From a virus, in the IMG/VR virus record IMGVR_UViG_3300023179_003528, positions 12,455 to 76,454 of that record: DNA of 64,000 nt. The stretch is one strand, 5' to 3'. A program made the position numbers and the translations under genes. A model generated the notes under the pieces. That model was given only the letters and a program-made list of their open reading frames with translations, searched no databases and was not told where the DNA came from. Positions 4,305 through 54,119 of this stretch are shown here, in pieces. Positions within the stretch are counted from its first letter, which is position 1. The number at the start of each line of letters is the position of its first letter.

Positions 4305-5858
4305 ATGAAAAAACCACCAATTAATCTAACACCGTTACAAAAAGACTATGCGGTTTTTCTTCCCGCAATCTCGTCGTTCTACAGTACCTATGTGGCAAAA
4401 CAACGACTAGAAGAATTTGTTCCAACAGATCGAATTCCTAAAGATTTCGACCGTGGCATTGAGGGTATGAACTTTCTCAATCCCGAGGAAGGCTATTTTA
4501 CCTATAAATATGCGCTATATTCAGCAGGTCATGCTCAATTAGATCTGCAAAAAAGTCTTGTTCAAGAATCTATGATCCAACAGAGGGATCGCAATGCCAC
4601 AATGATTTTAGGTGATTCGGGAGGATATCAAATTGGTAAAGGTGTTCTAAAATTTGATTGGTTAAATTTTGAAGGTGCAAAAGCCAACGCTGTTAGACAG
4701 CAAATTCTAGAATGGTTAGAACTAACTGCAGACTGGTCCATGTTTTTAGATGTGCCAACTTGGGCCTGTGATCATATTCATAGCCCAAAAACAGGACTTA
4801 AAACTTTTCAAGATTGTTTAGATAAAACTCGTTTTAATAATGAATATTTTTTAAAGAATAGGCTGGGACAAACAAAATGGCTTAATGTTCTGCAAGGTAG
4901 CGATTGGGATAGCGCAGAAGAATGGTATGATGGTGTTAAAGAGTTTTCAGATCCTACTGTATGGGAAGATCGAGCCGCAGAAGGGTGGGCCTTTGGAGGT
5001 GCCAATATGTGTAAAATGGACATCACCCTTAAAAGATTAATCACTATGCGTGAGGATGGATTACTTACCAATAAAAATTGGATTCACTTCTTGGGCACCG
5101 CTCAATTAGATTGGAGCTGTTATCTTACCAGTATCCAAAGGCAAATTAGGAAACATATCAATGAAGAAATTACCATATCTTTTGACTGCGCCTCACCGTT
5201 TATCGCAACAGCGCATGGACTCGTCTACACCAATGCCCAGCACACTCAAAAACGTTGGAGCGTTATTATGGACAAAGCCCCAGACCTCAAAACTCTTGCA
5301 GGAAGCGATATCCCATTCCCATTTGAATCAGAACTAGGACGCAGAATGACCATGGGAGATATTTGCCATTATGCTCCTGGTATGCTAAACAAAATTGGTA
5401 AGGAAGGTAAAACTTCTTGGGATAGTTTTTCATATGCTCTAATGATGGGTCATAATGTCTATTGCCATATTGTTGCTGTACAACGTGCTCAACAGTTGAT
5501 GGACATTGAAGTTGCTAAAACTAAAGGAAAAATTCGCTGGCGTCATTGGAAAAAAGTCAAAGCAGATGATAAGAGTGACGAATATTCAGAATGGGTTCCA
5601 CGTAATATCTTATATTTTAACAATTTTGTAGAAGATCTATTCAATACCAAAACTAAACAAGAAGCATTCAATATTATGGATGAGGCGGGTCCTTTTCTAA
5701 GATCGTTGGAAGGAGCAAGGCTGCGAGGAGGTCCTGCTCAAAATACTTTTAATAGACATTTTGATGTAGAAGAAATCACCAAAGCAGTAGAAATAGATTT
5801 GGAAAATCCCGAAGATGAAGAACTTAGGAAATTGGAAGATAGTCTTCTTGACAGTTAA
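4305..5858 (+). CDS. dpdA: TGT-fold guanine transglycosylase, DpdA-like (7-deazaguanine insertion into DNA)
   Basis: TGT motifs in order: DSGGYQ, LDVP, VLQG, HFLG, SFDCASP, GHN. Linked to QueD-like and QueE genes. Confidence 0.75.
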   Translation: MKKPPINLTPLQKDYAVFLPAISSFYSTYVAKQRLEEFVPTDRIPKDFDRGIEGMNFLNPEEGYFTYKYALYSAGHAQLDLQKSLVQESMIQQRDRNATMILGDSGGYQIGKGVLKFDWLNFEGAKANAVRQQILEWLELTADWSMFLDVPTWACDHIHSPKTGLKTFQDCLDKTRFNNEYFLKNRLGQTKWLNVLQGSDWDSAEEWYDGVKEFSDPTVWEDRAAEGWAFGGANMCKMDITLKRLITMREDGLLTNKNWIHFLGTAQLDWSCYLTSIQRQIRKHINEEITISFDCASPFIATAHGLVYTNAQHTQKRWSVIMDKAPDLKTLAGSDIPFPFESELGRRMTMGDICHYAPGMLNKIGKEGKTSWDSFSYALMMGHNVYCHIVAVQRAQQLMDIEVAKTKGKIRWRHWKKVKADDKSDEYSEWVPRNILYFNNFVEDLFNTKTKQEAFNIMDEAGPFLRSLEGARLRGGPAQNTFNRHFDVEEITKAVEIDLENPEDEELRKLEDSLLDS

Positions 5859-49697: not shown

Positions 49698-50521
49698 TTA
49701 TAGACTGTTTTATTTTCTTCAATGAATATGAAATACTAGAAGGAAGATTAGAATATCTCTATCCTCATGTGGATTATTTTGTTCTGGTAGAATCAAACAT
49801 GACATTCAGTGGTAAACAAAAGCCCATGTATTACATGCAGAACATGTCACGGTTTAAGCCATATCTTGACAAAATTTTATATTTTCCCTTTATTACCAGT
49901 GCTGATAGATATGACTTTACCAAACAGCCTAGACATGATAGAGATTACGCTACCGGACCCTGGGCTGCCGAACATGCTCAACGTCGCTACATGGGTTCTT
50001 GCATTGATCTATTTCAAGATGAGGATATTATCCTATTCAGTGACCTAGATGAAATATGGCATAAAGATTGTATTCCTATCATACGTGAACATCTAGATGC
50101 AGGAACTCCAGCATTGACCATAGAACAAGATCATTTCTGCTATAATTTTAGACAAAAACAGATTATTCCTATTAGAGGTACCACTACCAGTAAGATAAGT
50201 TTTGCTCGTCAAAGAGATCCTCAGGCACAGCGTAATGAAAAATACGGATATCCCTGTATTATTAGAGGAGGATGGCATCTAAGCTATTGGGGTGACACAG
50301 AAAAAATCAAATACAAAATTGAATCATTTAGTCATACAGAATTGGATAGAGATGAGTATAAAAATCCGGATCATATCAAACAACGTATCAAGCTAGGTGC
50401 AGATCTGTTCAATAGAGATAATCCTTATGTAAATGTGGACCCAAGTGAAATACCCCAAGATGTAATGCAAATTTTCGGCAAGTATAATGACTACCTTATA
50501 AAAGAAAATGTTCAAAATTAA
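49694..50521 (+). CDS. GT17-like glycosyltransferase (beta-1,4-GlcNAc transferase family)
   Basis: IIDCFIFFNE..IL..RL......VDYFVLVES..TFSG..KP, SDLDEI and GGWHLSY.G...IKYKIESFSH motifs. Confidence 0.82.
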   Translation: MIIDCFIFFNEYEILEGRLEYLYPHVDYFVLVESNMTFSGKQKPMYYMQNMSRFKPYLDKILYFPFITSADRYDFTKQPRHDRDYATGPWAAEHAQRRYMGSCIDLFQDEDIILFSDLDEIWHKDCIPIIREHLDAGTPALTIEQDHFCYNFRQKQIIPIRGTTTSKISFARQRDPQAQRNEKYGYPCIIRGGWHLSYWGDTEKIKYKIESFSHTELDRDEYKNPDHIKQRIKLGADLFNRDNPYVNVDPSEIPQDVMQIFGKYNDYLIKENVQN

Positions 50522-52289
50522 AACACTCACAGTAAAAAACTTCATGAGCGTGGGCAATCAAACCCAGGCCGTAGACTTTTCTAAACAAAATCTAACCCTT
50601 GTACTAGGATCCAACCTAGACCTAGGAGGAGATGACACCGGTTCACGAAACGGCACAGGTAAAACAACAATCATTAACGCACTAAGTTATGGACTCTACG
50701 GTCAGGCTCTGACAAATATTAGAAAAGAAAACCTAATTAATAAGACTAATGGCAAAAATATGTTGGTCACTGTAGAGTTTGAAAAAGGTAAAAATCATTA
50801 TAGGATAGAACGAGGCCGTAAACCCAATGTGTTAAAATTGTTTGTGAATAACCACGAACTAAAAACTGATCAAGCCGAAGACGAAAGTCAAGGCGACAGC
50901 AGAGAGACACAGAAAAGCATAGAGGACATGCTGGAAATCAGCCACACCATGTTTAAACATCTAGTGGCCTTAAATACCTATACCGAACCTTTTCTTTCTA
51001 TGAAGGCTGCTGAACAACGTGAAGTTATAGAACAGCTACTTGGTATTACTTTATTAAGTGAGAAAGCAGATACTCTAAAAGATCATATAAAACAGACCAA
51101 AGACCTTATACAAACTGAAAACACAAAAATAGAAGCCATAAAAGCAGCTAATGAAAATGTTCAAAAAAGTATAGATAGTTTAAAAATAAAAAGTTCTGCC
51201 TGGGACAACAAACACCAACAAGAGTTAGAAAATCTAGGTCGTGCCATTGTGAATCTTGAATCTGTTAACATTGAAGCAGAAATACAGGCGCACAAAGATC
51301 TGGCCACATGGTTAGAGAATGATCGTAAACTAACACAGCTTAGAAAACAACGTGCTACTCTAGAAACTGCGGTCATGCAGGCTGCTAAAAGTGTAGAAAA
51401 GTATACTTGCGATTATGACATGCTGAAAAACAAAACATGTCCTTCCTGTAAACAGGGTCTGCAGGATCATGATCATGATCATATGATTCAAGAAGTAGAA
51501 AAAAATCTAGTTGATGCCAATGAATATGCAGGCAAGGTCACACATGATTATGGAATAGTTGTAAATGAAATTGAGGCAATTGTAAAACAACCCAAGCGTC
51601 CCGATACATTTTATGATACTGAAGCGGAAGCACAAGGACACAAGCATAATCTTGTAAATTTAGAAAAGACAATCATTGAAAAATCAGAAGAGTCCAACCC
51701 TTATGAAGAACAAATTATAGAATTAACCAATACTGCCTTACAGAGAATAGATTGGACCCATATAAATGAACTATCGAAATTAAGAGATCATCAAGAATTC
51801 CTTTTAAAATTGTTGACAAATAAGGATAGTTTCATACGAAAACGTATTATTGATCAAAACTTGACCTATCTTAATAAGAGACTAGGATACTATATTGATA
51901 GACTCGGACTACCTCATAAGGTCATATTTCAAAATGATCTAAATGTTGAAATTACTCAACTTGGACAAGACTTAGACTTTGATAATCTAAGTAGAGGAGA
52001 ACGTAATAGACTGATCCTATCAATGAGTTTTGCATTCCGTGATGTATGGGAAGGACTATATCAAAATATTAATCTACTGTTCATTGACGAACTTATAGAT
52101 TCAGGCATGGATTCAGCAGGTGTAGAATCAGCATTGGCTATGTTGAAAAAAATTGGACGCGAACGTGGCAAGAATATCTATCTAATCAGTCACAAAGACG
52201 AACTAATTGGTCGTGTCAATAACGTGCTTAGAGTTGTAAAAGAAAACGGATTTACCAGCTACTCAAATGATATAGACTATGTTGAATAA
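50508..52289 (+). CDS. gp46: Rad50/SbcC-like recombination ATPase
   Basis: NGTGKTT, CPSC zinc hook, LSRGE signature, LLFIDE and ISH motifs. Confidence 0.93.
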   Translation: MFKIKTLTVKNFMSVGNQTQAVDFSKQNLTLVLGSNLDLGGDDTGSRNGTGKTTIINALSYGLYGQALTNIRKENLINKTNGKNMLVTVEFEKGKNHYRIERGRKPNVLKLFVNNHELKTDQAEDESQGDSRETQKSIEDMLEISHTMFKHLVALNTYTEPFLSMKAAEQREVIEQLLGITLLSEKADTLKDHIKQTKDLIQTENTKIEAIKAANENVQKSIDSLKIKSSAWDNKHQQELENLGRAIVNLESVNIEAEIQAHKDLATWLENDRKLTQLRKQRATLETAVMQAAKSVEKYTCDYDMLKNKTCPSCKQGLQDHDHDHMIQEVEKNLVDANEYAGKVTHDYGIVVNEIEAIVKQPKRPDTFYDTEAEAQGHKHNLVNLEKTIIEKSEESNPYEEQIIELTNTALQRIDWTHINELSKLRDHQEFLLKLLTNKDSFIRKRIIDQNLTYLNKRLGYYIDRLGLPHKVIFQNDLNVEITQLGQDLDFDNLSRGERNRLILSMSFAFRDVWEGLYQNINLLFIDELIDSGMDSAGVESALAMLKKIGRERGKNIYLISHKDELIGRVNNVLRVVKENGFTSYSNDIDYVE

Positions 52290-52560
52290 GCCTTTAGAAC
52301 AATATTTAGAATTATATTCAGAATATGTAGTCCTTGCTGTATCTCTGCATAATTACCATAGATCCTTTTCAAAAAACCTAGGCTATGAAACTTGCCTAGA
52401 TGTTAAAAAAACTGGACGAAGAATGAATATAGTTTTAAAAGATTTACAAAAAATGGCTAGAGCTGCCTACCTCGAACATAGGAAACAAACAGTAAAAAGG
52501 GGAAGACCTAAAGGAAAAAAAGATGAACAAAACAACAACACAACTACAAAGACTATTTGA
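52279..52560 (+). CDS. hypothetical basic protein
   Basis: 93 aa with AT-hook-like KRGRPK. Confidence 0.55.
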   Translation: MLNKPLEQYLELYSEYVVLAVSLHNYHRSFSKNLGYETCLDVKKTGRRMNIVLKDLQKMARAAYLEHRKQTVKRGRPKGKKDEQNNNTTTKTI

Positions 52561-52720
52561 AGAATATCTAAAAGAAGATGAAAAATTCACAGGAGGTAAC
52601 GCTGCCGCAGGAACTAGAGCTCGCAAGGCTCTGGCAGAAATCAGTAAGGCAGTTAAGACAAGACGTAATGAAATTACAGCAGAAAAGGCTCTTCGTAAAG
52701 AGGCCAAAACTGCAAAATAA
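52523..52720 (+). CDS. small basic histone H1-like (Hc1-type) DNA-binding protein
   Basis: KF..GNAAAGTRARKAL.EI.K..K..R.EI pattern; AAGGA RBS. Confidence 0.6.
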   Translation: MNKTTTQLQRLFEEYLKEDEKFTGGNAAAGTRARKALAEISKAVKTRRNEITAEKALRKEAKTAK

Positions 52721-52723
52721 TCA

Positions 52724-53158
52724 ATGTCTTGGACCTACCAAGGGACGATTATTAATGAATTACCCGAGAACTGTATAGGTTTCGTATATCTCATCACCAA
52801 TACAGTAACTGGCAAAAAATACGTAGGCAAAAAATTATCTAAATTCTCCAAAATAACTTATAAAACTGTAAGACTCAAAAACGGCACTAAAAAAAGAAAA
52901 AGAACTAAAAGCAAAATAGAGTCGGATTGGCAGACATATTATGGCTCAAACGATAATCTCAACCAAGACGTACTCAAATTAGGCACAGAGAAATTTTTAA
53001 GAGAAATACTATACTTTTGTAATTCAAAGGCAGAATGTTCCTATACCGAAGCACGTGAACAATTTACTCGCAAAGTACTAGAATCAGACGAATACTATAA
53101 CGGACAGATATCTGTTCGTGTCCATGGCACCCACATAAAAGGCAAACTTAACGGTTAA
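52724..53158 (+). CDS. stand-alone GIY-YIG nuclease-family protein
   Basis: GFVYLITNTVTGKKYVG, Y.GS, F.REIL, catalytic-type Glu (YTEARE) and YYN; Lys/Arg-rich insert. Confidence 0.82.
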   Translation: MSWTYQGTIINELPENCIGFVYLITNTVTGKKYVGKKLSKFSKITYKTVRLKNGTKKRKRTKSKIESDWQTYYGSNDNLNQDVLKLGTEKFLREILYFCNSKAECSYTEAREQFTRKVLESDEYYNGQISVRVHGTHIKGKLNG

Positions 53159-53570
53159 TGGCTCGCGCAGGCTAACTTCATGCGCCCTAGACCTGGATCC
53201 AGTATCGCAGGGACGGAATGCTCACCGCCGTGGTGAGAACTCGACCACTACCCGAAAGGATGAAGATCACTAAATGCCGTGATTTGGTTGTTTGAATAGG
53301 TTAATTTAAAGGCAAAAAGAAGGATAACTCCCTAACGGACATATAGACGTCTGCGTGTTTATGTGTGCCTGCCGTCGGATAAAGACTGAGCTCGTGGTAC
53401 CGGCCGACCGCCACTGTAATGCTCTAACGCGGAATGACTTGCTAACTCGGATGATGACAAGTACATCTTTGCCCGCTCTGGGCAAAGTATGACCATTTAA
53501 TCTGGATGATAGAAAAGAAAATTGCTTCGAGTCGTTAGACGAAGAAGCAAACGAACGCAGTTCGTTTCAG
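53159..53570 (+). ncRNA. large structured non-coding element of unknown class (strand inferred)
   Basis: ~450-nt gap with no ORF in the track; about 49% GC by hand count (175/360 for 53161-53520), well above the flanks; at least 8 hairpins, several with G-U pairs on the + strand. Confidence 0.6.
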
Positions 53571-53609
53571 ATTAATAAATAAAATTTGTTAGACTTTTGA
53601 GGAAAGATT

Positions 53610-54119
53610 ATGAAAATCTCTGATGTAATCTCTGAAAACACCGAAACTATTAGTGAATTAGGAACTACTCCTATGGGTTTAGGTCAACGTATGGCTACAG
53701 GAGCTCTGGCGAAACTAGGATCAACCACGGCTCAGGCTAATCTAGATGTAGGAAAAAGAGCTAACGAACTAGAAAAAACTTTTAGACAATGGGCATTGAG
53801 AGCAGGGATTAGTTTAAACATGGCACCTAAAACTGAGTTAGAAAAGTTTTTTCAACAGCAAGGATTACCTTCAATGCCGTTAAGACAGAACATGTATGAT
53901 CTTACAGATCCAAATACATCTAGAGAAGTTTGGAAAGCAGTTGCTCAGAATGCCTATAAGAGTGGAGGTTCAACTGCTGCATCTGCTCCATTAGGACAAA
54001 AATATGGATTAGGTTCTGGATCAAGTAGCAGTAGCGGACAAAATGTTCTGGCTCAAATACAGGGCATGTTGGGCAGCTTGACACCAGCAGAGAGAAACAA
54101 ACTTAAGGCTGCTCTCTAA
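53610..54119 (+). CDS. hypothetical late protein, possibly a processed head protein
   Basis: TAAATA at 53576-53581, GAGGA RBS, N-terminal ISE motifs (MKISDVISENTETISE). Confidence 0.65.
   Translation: MKISDVISENTETISELGTTPMGLGQRMATGALAKLGSTTAQANLDVGKRANELEKTFRQWALRAGISLNMAPKTELEKFFQQQGLPSMPLRQNMYDLTDPNTSREVWKAVAQNAYKSGGSTAASAPLGQKYGLGSGSSSSSGQNVLAQIQGMLGSLTPAERNKLKAAL

What the first reader, a model, noticed from the sequence alone, without database searches (positions are those of the whole stretch)
52724..53570. Minimal GIY-YIG protein followed immediately by a ~410-nt highly structured non-coding element: candidate nuclease-RNA system
Seen: this is the largest gap in an otherwise tightly packed window and starts at the GIY-YIG stop codon. 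It is about 49% GC and densely paired: GCGCA/TGCGC (53165-53185), CTCACCG/TGGTGAG (53221-53237), CC-GAAA-GG (53252-53259), ATCAC/GTGAT (53266-53283), ACATATAGAC/GTTTATGTGT (53339-53366, G-U pairs), nested GAGC-GTGG-CGG/CCG-CCAC-GCTC (53388-53424) and CTTTGCCC/GGGCAAAG (53467-53487). The 144-aa protein has no C-terminal DNA-binding domain but has a very basic insert (KTVRLKNGTKKRKRTKSK). I could not match the element to tRNA, tmRNA, RNase P or intron consensus. Inference: a large ncRNA cotranscribed with, and perhaps bound by, the nuclease (RNA-guided, RNA-inhibited or mobile RNP). A replication or packaging cis-site processed by the nuclease is an alternative.
Basis: partly seen in the sequence, partly recalled or inferred. 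Interest (0 to 1): 0.85.

Follow-up and report, generated by a model that had tools for sequence, protein, structure and literature searches.

The report
Twin-box phage RNA, extended Polynucleobacter-1
The gene-free gap behind a small nuclease gene of this uncultured T4-like phage encodes a real, roughly 410-base, doubly knotted non-coding RNA whose first third is the catalogued orphan motif Polynucleobacter-1; the rest carries the same short variable word twice, and its job is still unknown.

Summary
Window 53160-53567 (+) is a conserved, structured, non-coding RNA gene.

It is not wholly new. Positions 53160-53293 match Rfam RF01718 (Polynucleobacter-1) at 106.8 bits against a cut-off of 37. 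Weinberg et al. 2010 already placed this motif behind the same gene family and drew part of the 3' "tail".

New relative to Rfam and the paper:
- The RNA is about 410 nt long and has two pseudoknots.
- A 3' core is shared with a second 5'-domain type and with Polynucleobacter chromosomal copies.
- Two boxes, CUC+7 nt and UCU+7 nt, lie 55 nt apart. The 7-mers are identical in every copy with both boxes aligned and change together (17/17 and 10/10 independent pairs).

The "nuclease-RNA system" reading is only partly supported:
- 74 of 76 unbiased phage loci have a GIY-YIG or, mutually exclusively, a PDDEXK_15 nuclease gene within 1.5 kb of the RNA on the same strand.
- The GIY-YIG family occurs in hundreds of phages, and the three examined have no room for this RNA behind the gene.
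- The bacterial copies have no such nuclease beside them.
- No nuclease residue covaries with the boxes.

The function is unknown. This scan has reported the same RNA family before on other genomes.

The parts
52724..53158 (+). GIY-YIG nuclease gene, 144 aa, catalytic domain only (family phrog_447, often mis-named 'NAD synthetase'; same family as P-SSM2 PSSM2_218)
   Evidence: Pfam PF19835 E 2.6e-32. phrog_447 E 4.6e-35. 35% identity to PSSM2_218, E 8e-21. Fold Z 8.2 to the I-TevI catalytic domain. Invariant Y22, Y33, E109, N126 and near-invariant R93.
53160..53293 (+). 5' domain = Rfam RF01718 Polynucleobacter-1 (helices P1, P2, P3, P4, P4a, P4b)
   Evidence: cmscan 106.8 bits against gathering score 37, model positions 1-141. 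The helices are 80-100% paired in the alignment; all but the invariant 2-bp P4a show compensatory changes.
53321..53333 (+). P5 hairpin (AGG/CCU in the window; 5 bp in most relatives)
   Evidence: Helix 7. MAFFT misaligns the window's subgroup by 2 columns.
53339..53366 (+). P6 hairpin, 10 bp; its 8-nt loop is the 5' strand of pseudoknot PK1
   Evidence: 10 of 10 pairs show changes on both sides (helix 8).
53350..53433 (+). PK1: UCUGCGU (53350-56) pairs with ACGCGGA (53427-33)
   Evidence: 99.5% of cells paired; 4 of 7 pairs have compensatory changes (helix 9). Probably the pseudoknot in Weinberg's 'tail'.
53374..53408 (+). PK2: GUCGG (53374-78) pairs with CCGAC (53404-08), inside the near-invariant core GGUACCGG-NNN-ACCGCC (53396-53412)
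   Evidence: 98.6% paired; 3 of 5 pairs compensatory (helix 10). The core was used as a search pattern and recovered about 90 elements.
53388..53424 (+). P8 (GAGC/GCUC) and P9 (GUGG/CCAC)
   Evidence: Helices 11 and 12 (96% paired). L029 and L009 carry a roughly 50-nt extra hairpin in the internal loop.
53437..53462 (+). P10 hairpin whose loop presents box 1
   Evidence: Seen in each sequence. Poorly aligned by MAFFT (helices 13 and 14).
53446..53455 (+). Box 1: CUC + GGAUGAU
53467..53487 (+). P11 hairpin between the two boxes
   Evidence: helix 15 (84% paired).
53501..53510 (+). Box 2: UCU + GGAUGAU, the same 7-mer as box 1, 55 nt downstream
   Evidence: MI is 1.06 and 1.0 bit between 53449 and 53504 and between 53453 and 53508. 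At least 14 different 7-mers occur, always identical in both boxes. Independent pairs agree 17/17 and 10/10.
53524..53566 (+). P12 (GNRA-capped hairpin) and P13 hairpin; likely 3' end of the RNA
   Evidence: Helices 16-18; P13 is 99.5% paired with 6 of 7 pairs compensatory.
53574..53581 (+). AAUAAAUA, a T4-type late-promoter-like word before the next gene (53610-54119)
   Evidence: Read from the sequence. Similar ATAAATA words lie upstream of the next gene in many, not all, relatives. The promoter role is inference from T4 biology.

Best explanation
**Shown.**
- 53160-53567 (+) is a gene for a non-coding RNA of about 410 nt. It has a complex fold of about 17 helices, including two pseudoknots.
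- Its 5' third is the Rfam orphan motif Polynucleobacter-1.
- Its 3' two-thirds form a core shared with a second phage type that has a different 5' domain, and with accessory chromosomal copies in Polynucleobacter-like bacteria.
- The RNA lies at the 3' end of the gp47-gp46-Hc1-nuclease gene row and ends before a late-promoter-like word.
- It presents the same variable 7-8-nt word twice. One copy is in the P10 loop and one is 3' of hairpin P11.

**Inferred.**
- The RNA is made as the tail of that early or middle transcript. It then acts as a stable trans-acting RNA or RNP scaffold, not as a cofactor made for the GIY-YIG protein.
- The two boxes are most simply two docking sites for one and the same short partner sequence, either two copies of it or one partner used in two states. 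Only a shared base-pairing partner readily explains why any change in one box is mirrored in the other.
- The partner is not within the element or its flanks, and no consistent one was found elsewhere in the seven phage records searched.
- The neighbouring nuclease is best read as a fixed neighbour, perhaps in the same pathway of DNA breakage or recombination.
For: - **Family match:** RF01718 at 106.8 bits.
- **Conservation:** similarity runs over gap positions 1 to about 430 in relatives.
- **Structure:** 55 RNAalifold pairs, 29 compensatory. A manual structure with two pseudoknots gives 89.8% paired against 37-41% in slid controls, a covariation score of 0.395 against 0.06-0.085, and 0 of 500 shuffles as high.
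- **Strand:** G:U 134 against A:C 64.
- **Breadth:** type B relatives give 87 pairs, 37 compensatory, with the same core and boxes. Bacterial copies have the full architecture and identical boxes.
- **Boxes:** identical in all 124 unique elements with both boxes aligned; positions change at least 30 and 20 times on the tree and always together.
- **No cis partner:** no covarying third column (MI at most 0.35). No complement within about 3 kb, nor a consistent one in whole phage records.
- **No protein link:** no covarying GIY-YIG residue.
- **RNA without the nuclease:** in bacteria, and in L231 and L295.
- **Nuclease without the RNA:** in the three isolate phages examined the homologue is followed by 148, 88 or 0 nt.
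- **Transcription hint:** contigs of an aquatic RNA library cover the ORF end plus 5' domain, and also the 3' domain.
Against: - No partner for the boxes was found, so the docking idea is inference only.
- Transcription, RNA ends and stability are not shown. The one RNA library gives contigs only and may hold DNA.
- Adjacency to a small nuclease is very strong (74 of 76). It survives a swap of nuclease family and a change of gene order. A direct functional link would also explain this.
- No isolate phage carries the RNA, so nothing is tested experimentally.
Confidence: 0.55

Rival explanations
1. Nuclease-RNA system: the RNA is a cofactor of the adjacent small nuclease. It could act as a guide, activator, inhibitor or antitoxin. 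The twin boxes would address the enzyme, perhaps a dimer, to a short sequence.
For: - 74 of 76 unbiased loci have GIY-YIG or PDDEXK_15 within 1.5 kb on the same strand.
- The two unrelated nucleases are single-copy and mutually exclusive in near-complete genomes.
- In L217 the order is RNA then PDDEXK.
- The RNA starts 1-50 nt after the stop codon.
Against: - In the three isolate phages examined the GIY-YIG homologue has 148, 88 or 0 nt behind it, too little for this RNA.
- The protein family has 2134 clusters.
- Bacterial copies, L231 and L295 lack a neighbouring nuclease of these families.
- No protein column covaries with the boxes.
- The boxes are 7-8 nt and of limited variety, and no target was found.
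- The adjacency may be plain synteny within one phage lineage.
Confidence: 0.13
2. Cis-acting 3' UTR: the structure stabilises, processes or terminates the gp47-gp46-nuclease transcript and has no trans function.
For: - It sits at the end of a same-strand gene row.
- P12 and P13 are GNRA-capped or stable hairpins just before a late-promoter-like word.
- One RNA-library contig bridges the ORF and the RNA.
Against: - About 410 nt with two pseudoknots and many invariant unpaired nucleotides is far more than a terminator or stabiliser needs.
- The same RNA stands alone in bacteria, divergent from its neighbour gene.
- Extra genes can lie between the nuclease gene and the RNA.
- The twin boxes stay unexplained.
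Confidence: 0.1
3. Self-processing RNA: a ribozyme or unconventional splicing substrate. The two identical boxes would be the two sites cut, or joined, by one active site. This is analogous to twin splice-site loops, and would remove the roughly 55-nt P11 module.
For: - Size, pseudoknots and invariant junction nucleotides are typical of ribozymes.
- Identical words flank a hairpin module.
Against: - No Rfam ribozyme or intron model matches, even at E up to 10.
- No internal guide complementary to the boxes was found.
- No joints were seen in the few RNA contigs (uninformative).
- L209, the one copy lacking the module, also lacks the PK1 strand and looks like a deletion.
Confidence: 0.07
4. Relic of a mobile cassette, like T4 gene 60 with mobA. 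The roughly 45-nt P11 module would be an insert flanked by a duplicated word. It would protect the RNA gene from the neighbouring endonuclease, and the boxes would be kept equal for a bypass-like reason.
For: - There is a formal likeness to the gene 60 gap: matched triplets, a hairpin, about 50 nt, and an endonuclease gene next door.
- Most phage boxes read NNN+UGA/UAA.
- The gene 60 comparison rests on my own knowledge.
Against: - There is no ORF through the boxes: in-frame stops lie upstream in 5 of 28 sequences, and frames are not kept.
- L241 (AUGAAGAG) and the bacterial boxes (RGCGAAAG) have no stop codon.
- The module is universal and old.
- The nuclease is single-copy and fixed, not sporadic.
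Confidence: 0.05
5. A DNA-level element: a replication origin, packaging site or recombination site, with the boxes as protein-binding direct repeats.
For: - Direct repeats lie five helical turns apart.
- The site is next to recombination genes.
Against: - Pairing is kept through G:U pairs on the + strand: 134 G:U against 64 A:C.
- Long-range and pseudoknot helices covary.
- A protein whose specificity changes 20-30 times is implausible.
Confidence: 0.03

Closest known systems
Polynucleobacter-1 RNA motif (Rfam RF01718; Weinberg et al. 2010, Genome Biol 11:R31, PMC2864571)
   Same: - The 5' 134 nt match the full model at 106.8 bits.
- The context is the same: downstream of the GOS11034 / PSSM2_218 gene family, shown here to be this GIY-YIG family.
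- The authors' raw alignment already draws P5, P6, P8, P9 and one pseudoknot as a 'tail' that is 'not always detected'.
   Different: - Rfam keeps only 141 nt.
- The following are not in the paper or in Rfam: PK2, P10-P13, the twin boxes, the type B 5' domain, the placement in T4-like phage genomes (the paper found none in purified phages), the identification of the neighbouring gene family as GIY-YIG, the PDDEXK replacement, and the defence-island context in bacteria.
- The function is unknown in both.
OMEGA / HEARO-type guide RNAs of IscB and TnpB (RNA encoded next to a small nuclease gene)
   Same: A structured RNA of several hundred nt lies directly beside a compact nuclease gene. HEARO came from the same 2010 survey and was long an orphan (my own knowledge).
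   Different: - There are no transposon ends and no terminal hypervariable guide.
- The nuclease family occurs mostly without the RNA, and the RNA occurs without the nuclease.
- GIY-YIG and PDDEXK are not RuvC or HNH enzymes.
Large orphan bacterial and phage ncRNAs (GOLLD, ROOL, OLE, raiA)
   Same: They share size, many helices with pseudoknots, conserved unpaired nucleotides, presence in phages and mobile islands, and unknown biochemical role (my own knowledge of these classes).
   Different: There is no sequence or model match. The twin boxes, identical in sense, are not described for those classes.
IS110 bridge RNA / IS1111 seekRNA (two loops that address two DNA partners)
   Same: One RNA carries two separate short specificity segments and is encoded next to a DNA-cutting or DNA-joining enzyme. 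The resemblance is recalled from the literature and was not tested.
   Different: - The two boxes here are identical rather than addressing different partners.
- No DEDD/serine recombinase is present.
- No complementary DNA site was found.
T4 gene 60 translational bypass with the mobA cassette
   Same: Matched words flank a roughly 50-nt gap with a hairpin, next to an endonuclease gene in a T4-like phage (my own knowledge).
   Different: The boxes are not inside an ORF, and some boxes have no stop codon.

Membership tests
Rfam RF01718 Polynucleobacter-1 RNA | Covariance-model score at or above the curated gathering score, over the whole model | tested here: met
   106.8 bits against 37; model positions 1-141 of 141; E 3.7e-22.
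Rfam RF01718 Polynucleobacter-1 RNA | Model helices kept by compensatory changes in relatives | tested here: met
   P1, P3, P4 and P4b are 97-100% paired with 3-4 compensatory pairs each; P2 is 80% paired with 2 compensatory pairs; P4a is invariant.
Rfam RF01718 Polynucleobacter-1 RNA | Context described by the authors: downstream of the GOS11034 / PSSM2_218-like gene | tested here: met
   The window's GIY-YIG is 35% identical to PSSM2_218, E 8e-21.
GIY-YIG nuclease superfamily (Pfam PF19835 SegE_GIY-YIG) | Profile match over the catalytic domain | tested here: met
   E 2.6e-32, profile positions 1-123 of 123.
GIY-YIG nuclease superfamily (Pfam PF19835 SegE_GIY-YIG) | Conserved catalytic residues (two Tyr, Arg, Glu, Asn) | tested here: met
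   Y22, Y33, E109 and N126 are invariant and R93 is near-invariant in 81 sequences. Assigning them to catalytic roles is inference.
GIY-YIG nuclease superfamily (Pfam PF19835 SegE_GIY-YIG) | GIY-YIG fold | tested here: met
   The model (pLDDT 96.5) has four GIY-YIG nucleases as its top hits: I-TevI Z 8.2 (rmsd 2.8, 83 aa), PD-T4-3 Z 7.1, UvrC-N Z 5.5, T4 EndoII Z 5.5.
Free-standing homing endonuclease (Seg-type) | Sporadic distribution and a DNA-binding domain beside the catalytic domain | tested here: not met
   The protein is 144 aa, catalytic domain only. It is single-copy at a fixed position after gp46 in nearly all relatives, at 57-87% identity.
T4 endonuclease II (DenA) orthologue | Sequence or closest structural relationship to DenA; position beside nrdB | tested here: inconclusive
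   No sequence match to any PDB chain. The fold match to 2wsh is Z 5.5, lower than to I-TevI. The Melnitz homologue follows nrdA-nrdB, separated from nrdB by one small ORF, but the window's gene follows gp46.
RNA-guided nuclease system (OMEGA/CRISPR-like) | Nuclease and RNA always co-occur | tested here: not met
   The nuclease family is in 519 isolate-phage records; in the three examined the gene is followed by 148, 88 or 0 nt. The RNA occurs without the nuclease in bacteria, L231 and L295.
RNA-guided nuclease system (OMEGA/CRISPR-like) | A freely variable guide segment with matching targets | tested here: not met
   The boxes are 7-8 nt and of limited variety. No consistent complementary site was found in the loci or in seven whole phage records.
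RNA-guided nuclease system (OMEGA/CRISPR-like) | Physical binding of the RNA by the nuclease, and RNA-dependent cleavage | not testable with these tools
   This needs biochemistry. The complex predictor takes no RNA chain.
Type III toxin-antitoxin (ToxIN-like) | Tandem repeats of an antitoxin RNA, processed by an adjacent endoribonuclease toxin | tested here: not met
   Only two short boxes occur inside a large unique fold. The neighbour has a DNase-type GIY-YIG fold, and PADLOC models do not match the RNA's bacterial neighbours.
Group I/II introns and known ribozymes | Match to an Rfam intron or ribozyme model | tested here: not met
   A permissive cmscan of 52600-53800 up to E 10 lists only RF01718 and two chance snoRNA hits.

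The most novel reading that the evidence does not exclude
The twin boxes would be a bivalent guide. The RNA would hold two nucleic-acid partners that share the same 7-8-nt core, for example two DNA duplexes or ends to be cut, exchanged or joined. It would do this for a branch- or junction-processing enzyme encoded beside it: GIY-YIG, a RusA/Hjc-like PDDEXK_15 nuclease in phages, or a short tyrosine recombinase in one bacterial island. This would be an RNA-programmed synapsis or homing device distinct from CRISPR, OMEGA and bridge RNAs.
Probability: 0.04. Interest if true: 0.95.

Novelty: new variant of a known kind. Interest (0 to 1): 0.6.

Why it matters
Large, intricately folded bacterial and phage RNAs are rare, and those solved so far have turned out to be ribozymes, guides or cages. 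This family is abundant:
- 556 relatives of the neighbouring gene in IMG/VR
- about 90 elements among the first 120 pattern hits
- copies in Polynucleobacter defence islands

Only a third of the RNA is catalogued. The two boxes change often and always in step. That is a clear, testable handle for finding the partner by compensatory mutagenesis, pull-down or crosslinking. If the link to small nucleases and recombinases is functional, the family could be a new RNA-dependent DNA-transaction system. If not, it is still a well-defined new target for RNA structure and phage-host biology in freshwater systems.

Tried and rejected
**Searches for a partner or a function of the boxes**
- Translational bypass or a mini-ORF through the boxes is rejected. 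In-frame stops lie upstream, frames are not kept, and the stop-like TRA is missing in L241 and in bacteria.
- A peptide between the boxes is rejected because P11 is read in different frames.
- CsrA-type GGA sites, C/D-box k-turns, T-loop or anticodon-loop mimicry and sigma-70 -35/-10 spacing were each compared by eye. All are rejected because common box variants break them.
- A box-2 palindrome (AUCURGAU) as a dimerisation site fails for GAAU, ACAU and the bacterial boxes.
- The invariant U-rich strand GUUGUUUGA (53288-96) can pair with RRAURAU boxes by A-U and G.U pairs. It cannot explain the transversion variants.
- Complementary sites were searched in seven whole phage records. Only chance-level hits appeared, with no homologous context. 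A second apparent pair in G004 is not an element.
- No GIY-YIG residue covaries with the boxes.

**Searches that came back empty or uninformative**
- tRNA/tmRNA scan: none.
- Promoter and terminator scans: at chance level.
- Single-sequence folding: not better than shuffles.
- blastn against 50,697 isolate-phage records: no match for type A or type B.
- The genome contigs pattern scan was swamped by high-GC chance hits and found no element.
- The RNA library X1 gave only contigs of relatives. Parts without cover say nothing.
- DUF6641, the bacterial neighbour: the model has pLDDT 78, the fold search gives only generic helical matches (Z 5 or less), there are no PADLOC hits and no papers. It is absent from five phage records.
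- PDB sequence searches with the protein and with its profile: no hit. Foldseek gave only weak I-TevI rows.
- Literature search for RNA-guided GIY-YIG systems: nothing relevant.

**Not done**
The wider test of RNA adjacency to DUF6641 homologues was therefore done only on genomes reached through the genome search.
Full report
**What the window is.** It belongs to a 76-kb IMG/VR virus record with estimated completeness of 20%. The region has T4-like genes:
- a gp46-like SbcC/Rad50 ATPase (50508-52289)
- an Hc1-like basic protein (52523-52720)
- a 144-aa GIY-YIG protein (52724-53158)
- an ORF-free gap (53159-53609)
- an unknown gene (53610-54119)
- a T4 baseplate gene on the other strand

The gap is the largest ORF-free stretch in the window. 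It is 47-50% GC against 31-40% around it.

The GIY-YIG protein has 556 relatives in IMG/VR. In these contigs the order gp46 - (Hc1) - GIY-YIG - gap - variable gene - baseplate is kept. The non-coding gap is as conserved as the genes, with blastn similarity running over gap positions 1 to about 430.

In a 28-sequence alignment (A1), RNAalifold finds 55 pairs, 29 with compensatory changes.
- 89.8% of cells are paired, against 37-41% when the 3' partners are slid by 1-3 columns.
- 58 pairs have changes on both sides.
- The covariation score is 0.395, against 0.06-0.085 slid and 0.157 shuffled.
- 0 of 500 shuffles reach any observed measure.

G:U pairs outnumber A:C by 134 to 64, so the + strand is the RNA. 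Folding of the single sequence is not better than shuffles. The evidence is therefore comparative.

**Part of it is known.** cmscan places Rfam RF01718 (Polynucleobacter-1) on 53160-53293 at 106.8 bits, against a gathering score of 37.
- Weinberg et al. 2010 (PMC2864571) wrote that most examples lie downstream of gene family GOS11034, possibly homologous to PSSM2_218 of cyanophage P-SSM2.
- They also wrote that the 3' half is not always detected, and that no purified phage had the motif.
- PSSM2_218, annotated 'NAD synthetase', is 35% identical to the window's GIY-YIG (E 8e-21).
- Their raw alignment already marks P5, P6, P8, P9 and one 7-bp pseudoknot as a 'tail' subfamily. By column arithmetic this is the P6-loop pairing, my PK1. 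I could not count the columns exactly.
- Their unaligned flanks even contain the two boxes in the Polynucleobacter genome.

Rfam kept only the first 141 positions.

**What is added here.**
1. *PK2.* GUCGG (53374-78) pairs with CCGAC (53404-08) inside the near-invariant GGUACCGG-NNN-ACCGCC. Three of five pairs are compensatory.
2. *Helices P10 to P13.* These carry the RNA to about 53567, just before an AAUAAAUA late-promoter-like word.
3. *A search with the core word.* It recovered about 90 more elements in viral contigs. 61 were full type A. 29 had only the 3' core by profile.
4. *Type B.* Those 29 have a different but equally conserved 5' domain. In an alignment of 18 type B sequences RNAalifold finds 87 pairs, 37 compensatory. 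RF01718 does not match the 12 type B loci that were scanned.

The 3' core is therefore the wider family. Polynucleobacter-1 is one of its 5' modules.

**The twin boxes.** Box 1 (CUC+GGAUGAU, 53446-55) lies in the loop of P10. Box 2 (UCU+GGAUGAU, 53501-10) lies 55 nt downstream, after hairpin P11.
- In 140 loci holding both boxes, at least 14 different 7-mers occur, including transversions such as ACAUGAA, GCAUAAU and UGGUAAU. In each case they are identical in both boxes.
- L241 has AUGAAGAG twice. Bacterial copies have RGCGAAAG or AGCGAUG twice, with one mismatch in L360.
- Mutual information between the two variable purine positions and their box-2 counterparts is 1.06 and 1.0 bit. The next best column reaches 0.31 or less.
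- On a tree of 124 unique elements, built without the box columns, these positions change at least 30 and 20 times, always together. Independent pairs agree 17/17 (p = 1.5e-5) and 10/10 (p = 0.002).

This is covariation that preserves identity, not complementarity. I found no third, complementary segment:
- none in the element
- none within about 3 kb, apart from an invariant U-rich strand that cannot explain the transversions
- none at a consistent place in seven whole phage records

Coding, bypass, protein-site and promoter readings were each tried and fail on some variant (see Tried and rejected). The simplest remaining reading is that both boxes dock the same short partner sequence, and that the partner lies elsewhere. 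This is inference.

**The nuclease.**
- The protein matches Pfam PF19835 over the whole catalytic domain and phrog_447.
- Its family has 2134 clusters at 50% identity, mostly 135-150 aa.
- Y22, Y33, E109 and N126 are invariant, and R93 is near-invariant.
- The AF2 model (pLDDT 96.5) shows the basic insert as a beta-hairpin at residues 40-66.
- Its four best structural matches are all GIY-YIG nucleases: I-TevI catalytic domain Z 8.2, PD-T4-3 Z 7.1, UvrC-N Z 5.5 and T4 EndoII Z 5.5.
- It is single-copy and fixed in position, with no DNA-binding domain. It does not behave like a mobile homing endonuclease.

**Is the RNA tied to the nuclease?** In the unbiased, pattern-found set, 76 loci have enough upstream sequence:

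| Arrangement | Loci |
|---|---|
| GIY-YIG directly upstream | 62 |
| GIY-YIG upstream with another gene between | 6 |
| PDDEXK_15 (PF24608) directly upstream | 4 |
| PDDEXK_15 upstream with a gene between | 1 |
| PDDEXK_15 directly downstream | 1 |
| Neither | 2 |

PHROGs calls the PDDEXK_15 relatives 'RusA-like Holliday junction resolvase'. In near-complete genomes the two nucleases are mutually exclusive and single-copy:
- G002 (99% complete) has 1 GIY-YIG and 0 PDDEXK_15.
- G008 (85% complete) has 0 GIY-YIG and 1 PDDEXK_15.

That is notable, but it can also be lineage synteny plus non-orthologous replacement of an enzyme the phage needs anyway. Four points speak against an obligate pair:
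- The GIY-YIG family is found in 519 isolate-phage records. Only 148 nt (Melnitz, where it follows nrdA-nrdB) and 88 nt (S-SRM01) lie downstream, and in P-SSM2 the next gene abuts.
- L231 has a MazG gene directly upstream and an RNase T-like gene about 800 nt downstream; L295 is flanked by amidoligase-like and kinase-like genes.
- The bacterial copies lack both nucleases.
- No protein column covaries with the boxes.

**Bacterial copies.** RF01718 matches 3-4 of 151 sampled Burkholderiales genomes, all of 1.7-1.9 Mb. It matches only 1 of 4 genomes in one genus, so it is accessory. The neighbouring proteins are named as Polynucleobacter in public sources.

Each copy is a full RNA of about 520 nt with both boxes. 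Each is transcribed divergently from a DUF6641 gene (3 of 3). Two loci had enough context to read:
- In G063 the RNA lies between a short tyrosine integrase and a complete type I Zorya system, ZorA-D.
- In G105 it lies beside a DrmD-like helicase, a DNA methylase and a type III restriction enzyme.

DUF6641 is multi-copy. Only the copy next to the RNA has the boxes nearby. It is absent from five phage records. Its fold gave nothing. So in bacteria the RNA rides in defence or mobile islands. Whether the phage copy mimics, hijacks or donated the bacterial one is open.

**Expression.** One aquatic metatranscriptome holds contigs of relatives (80-95% identity). They cover the GIY-YIG ORF, bridge the stop codon into the 5' domain (53098-53248) and cover 53312-53441. 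These are contigs from a library that may hold DNA, so this is a weak hint of co-transcription only.

**Earlier notes of this scan.** After my own analysis I found that follow-up agents had reported the same 'twin-box, extended Polynucleobacter-1' RNA on several other genomes, with the same verdicts. A first-reader note on this window had pointed at the two ATGAC-N10-GGATGAT units. My results agree with them. The scores here rest on what I tested.

**Verdict.** This is a real, large, doubly pseudoknotted phage ncRNA: an extended form of a known orphan motif. It has an unusual and robust twin-box signature and a strong but unexplained neighbourhood of small DNA-processing enzymes. The nuclease-cofactor idea remains possible (about 0.13) but is not supported by any direct evidence.

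Noticed in passing
window 52523-52720 (+): A 65-aa Hc1-like (chlamydial histone H1-like, PF07432, E 3.7e-12) basic protein gene sits between gp46 and the GIY-YIG gene. It is conserved in many relatives.
   Followed up: partly
L250:3963-4484, L241:3893-4423(-), L278:9348-9854, L319:8819-9385, L217:8380-8883: In a sister clade a PDDEXK_15 (PF24608; PHROG 'RusA-like Holliday junction resolvase') gene takes the GIY-YIG slot next to the RNA. In L217 it lies directly downstream of the RNA instead. The two nucleases are mutually exclusive in near-complete genomes.
   Followed up: yes
L053:3408-3835 and 17 other loci (alignment A4): 'Type B' elements have the same 3' core and twin boxes but a different, also covarying 5' domain that RF01718 does not match.
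   Followed up: partly
L364 (G063:C4:63000-82000); L365 (G105:C1:640000-659000): Bacterial copies of the RNA sit beside a divergent DUF6641 gene in islands. One island has a short tyrosine integrase and a complete type I Zorya system. The other has a DrmD-like helicase, a DNA methylase and a type III restriction enzyme.
   Followed up: partly
L295:3911-4304 and 5169-5240: An IMG/VR contig that carries the RNA in a different context also encodes a permuted (alpha-type) tmRNA (RF04321, 92.5 bits) and a tRNA.
   Followed up: no
L029 and L009 (alignment A1, columns 326-388); L067 (columns 271-282): Some relatives carry an extra hairpin in the internal loop between P9 and the 3' strand of P8 (about 50 nt in L029 and L009). 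L067 has a smaller one after PK2. These are variable-length insertions typical of structured RNAs.
   Followed up: no
L209:8275-8644: One relative lacks the segment from the PK1 3' strand through box 1 and P11 (profile positions 267-333). This is a deletion variant or an assembly artefact.
   Followed up: partly
L230, L235, L245, L283 and others: In about 8% of loci one extra gene lies between the GIY-YIG gene and the RNA, for example a 308-aa Methyltransf_9-like protein in L230.
   Followed up: partly
window 53056-53084 (+): A sigma-70-like match (TGAACA-17-TAGAAT, 9 of 12) lies inside the 3' end of the GIY-YIG ORF, about 75 nt before the RNA. It is at chance level in the scan, and its conservation was not checked.
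   Followed up: no
G002:C1:62635-62646 (L332:1501-1512): A 12-nt exact complement of box 2 with its prefix (AATCTGGATAAT) lies inside a DNA-methyltransferase-like coding stretch (DPPF motif) of the 345-kb relative. It is probably chance, and no counterpart was found in the other records.
   Followed up: partly
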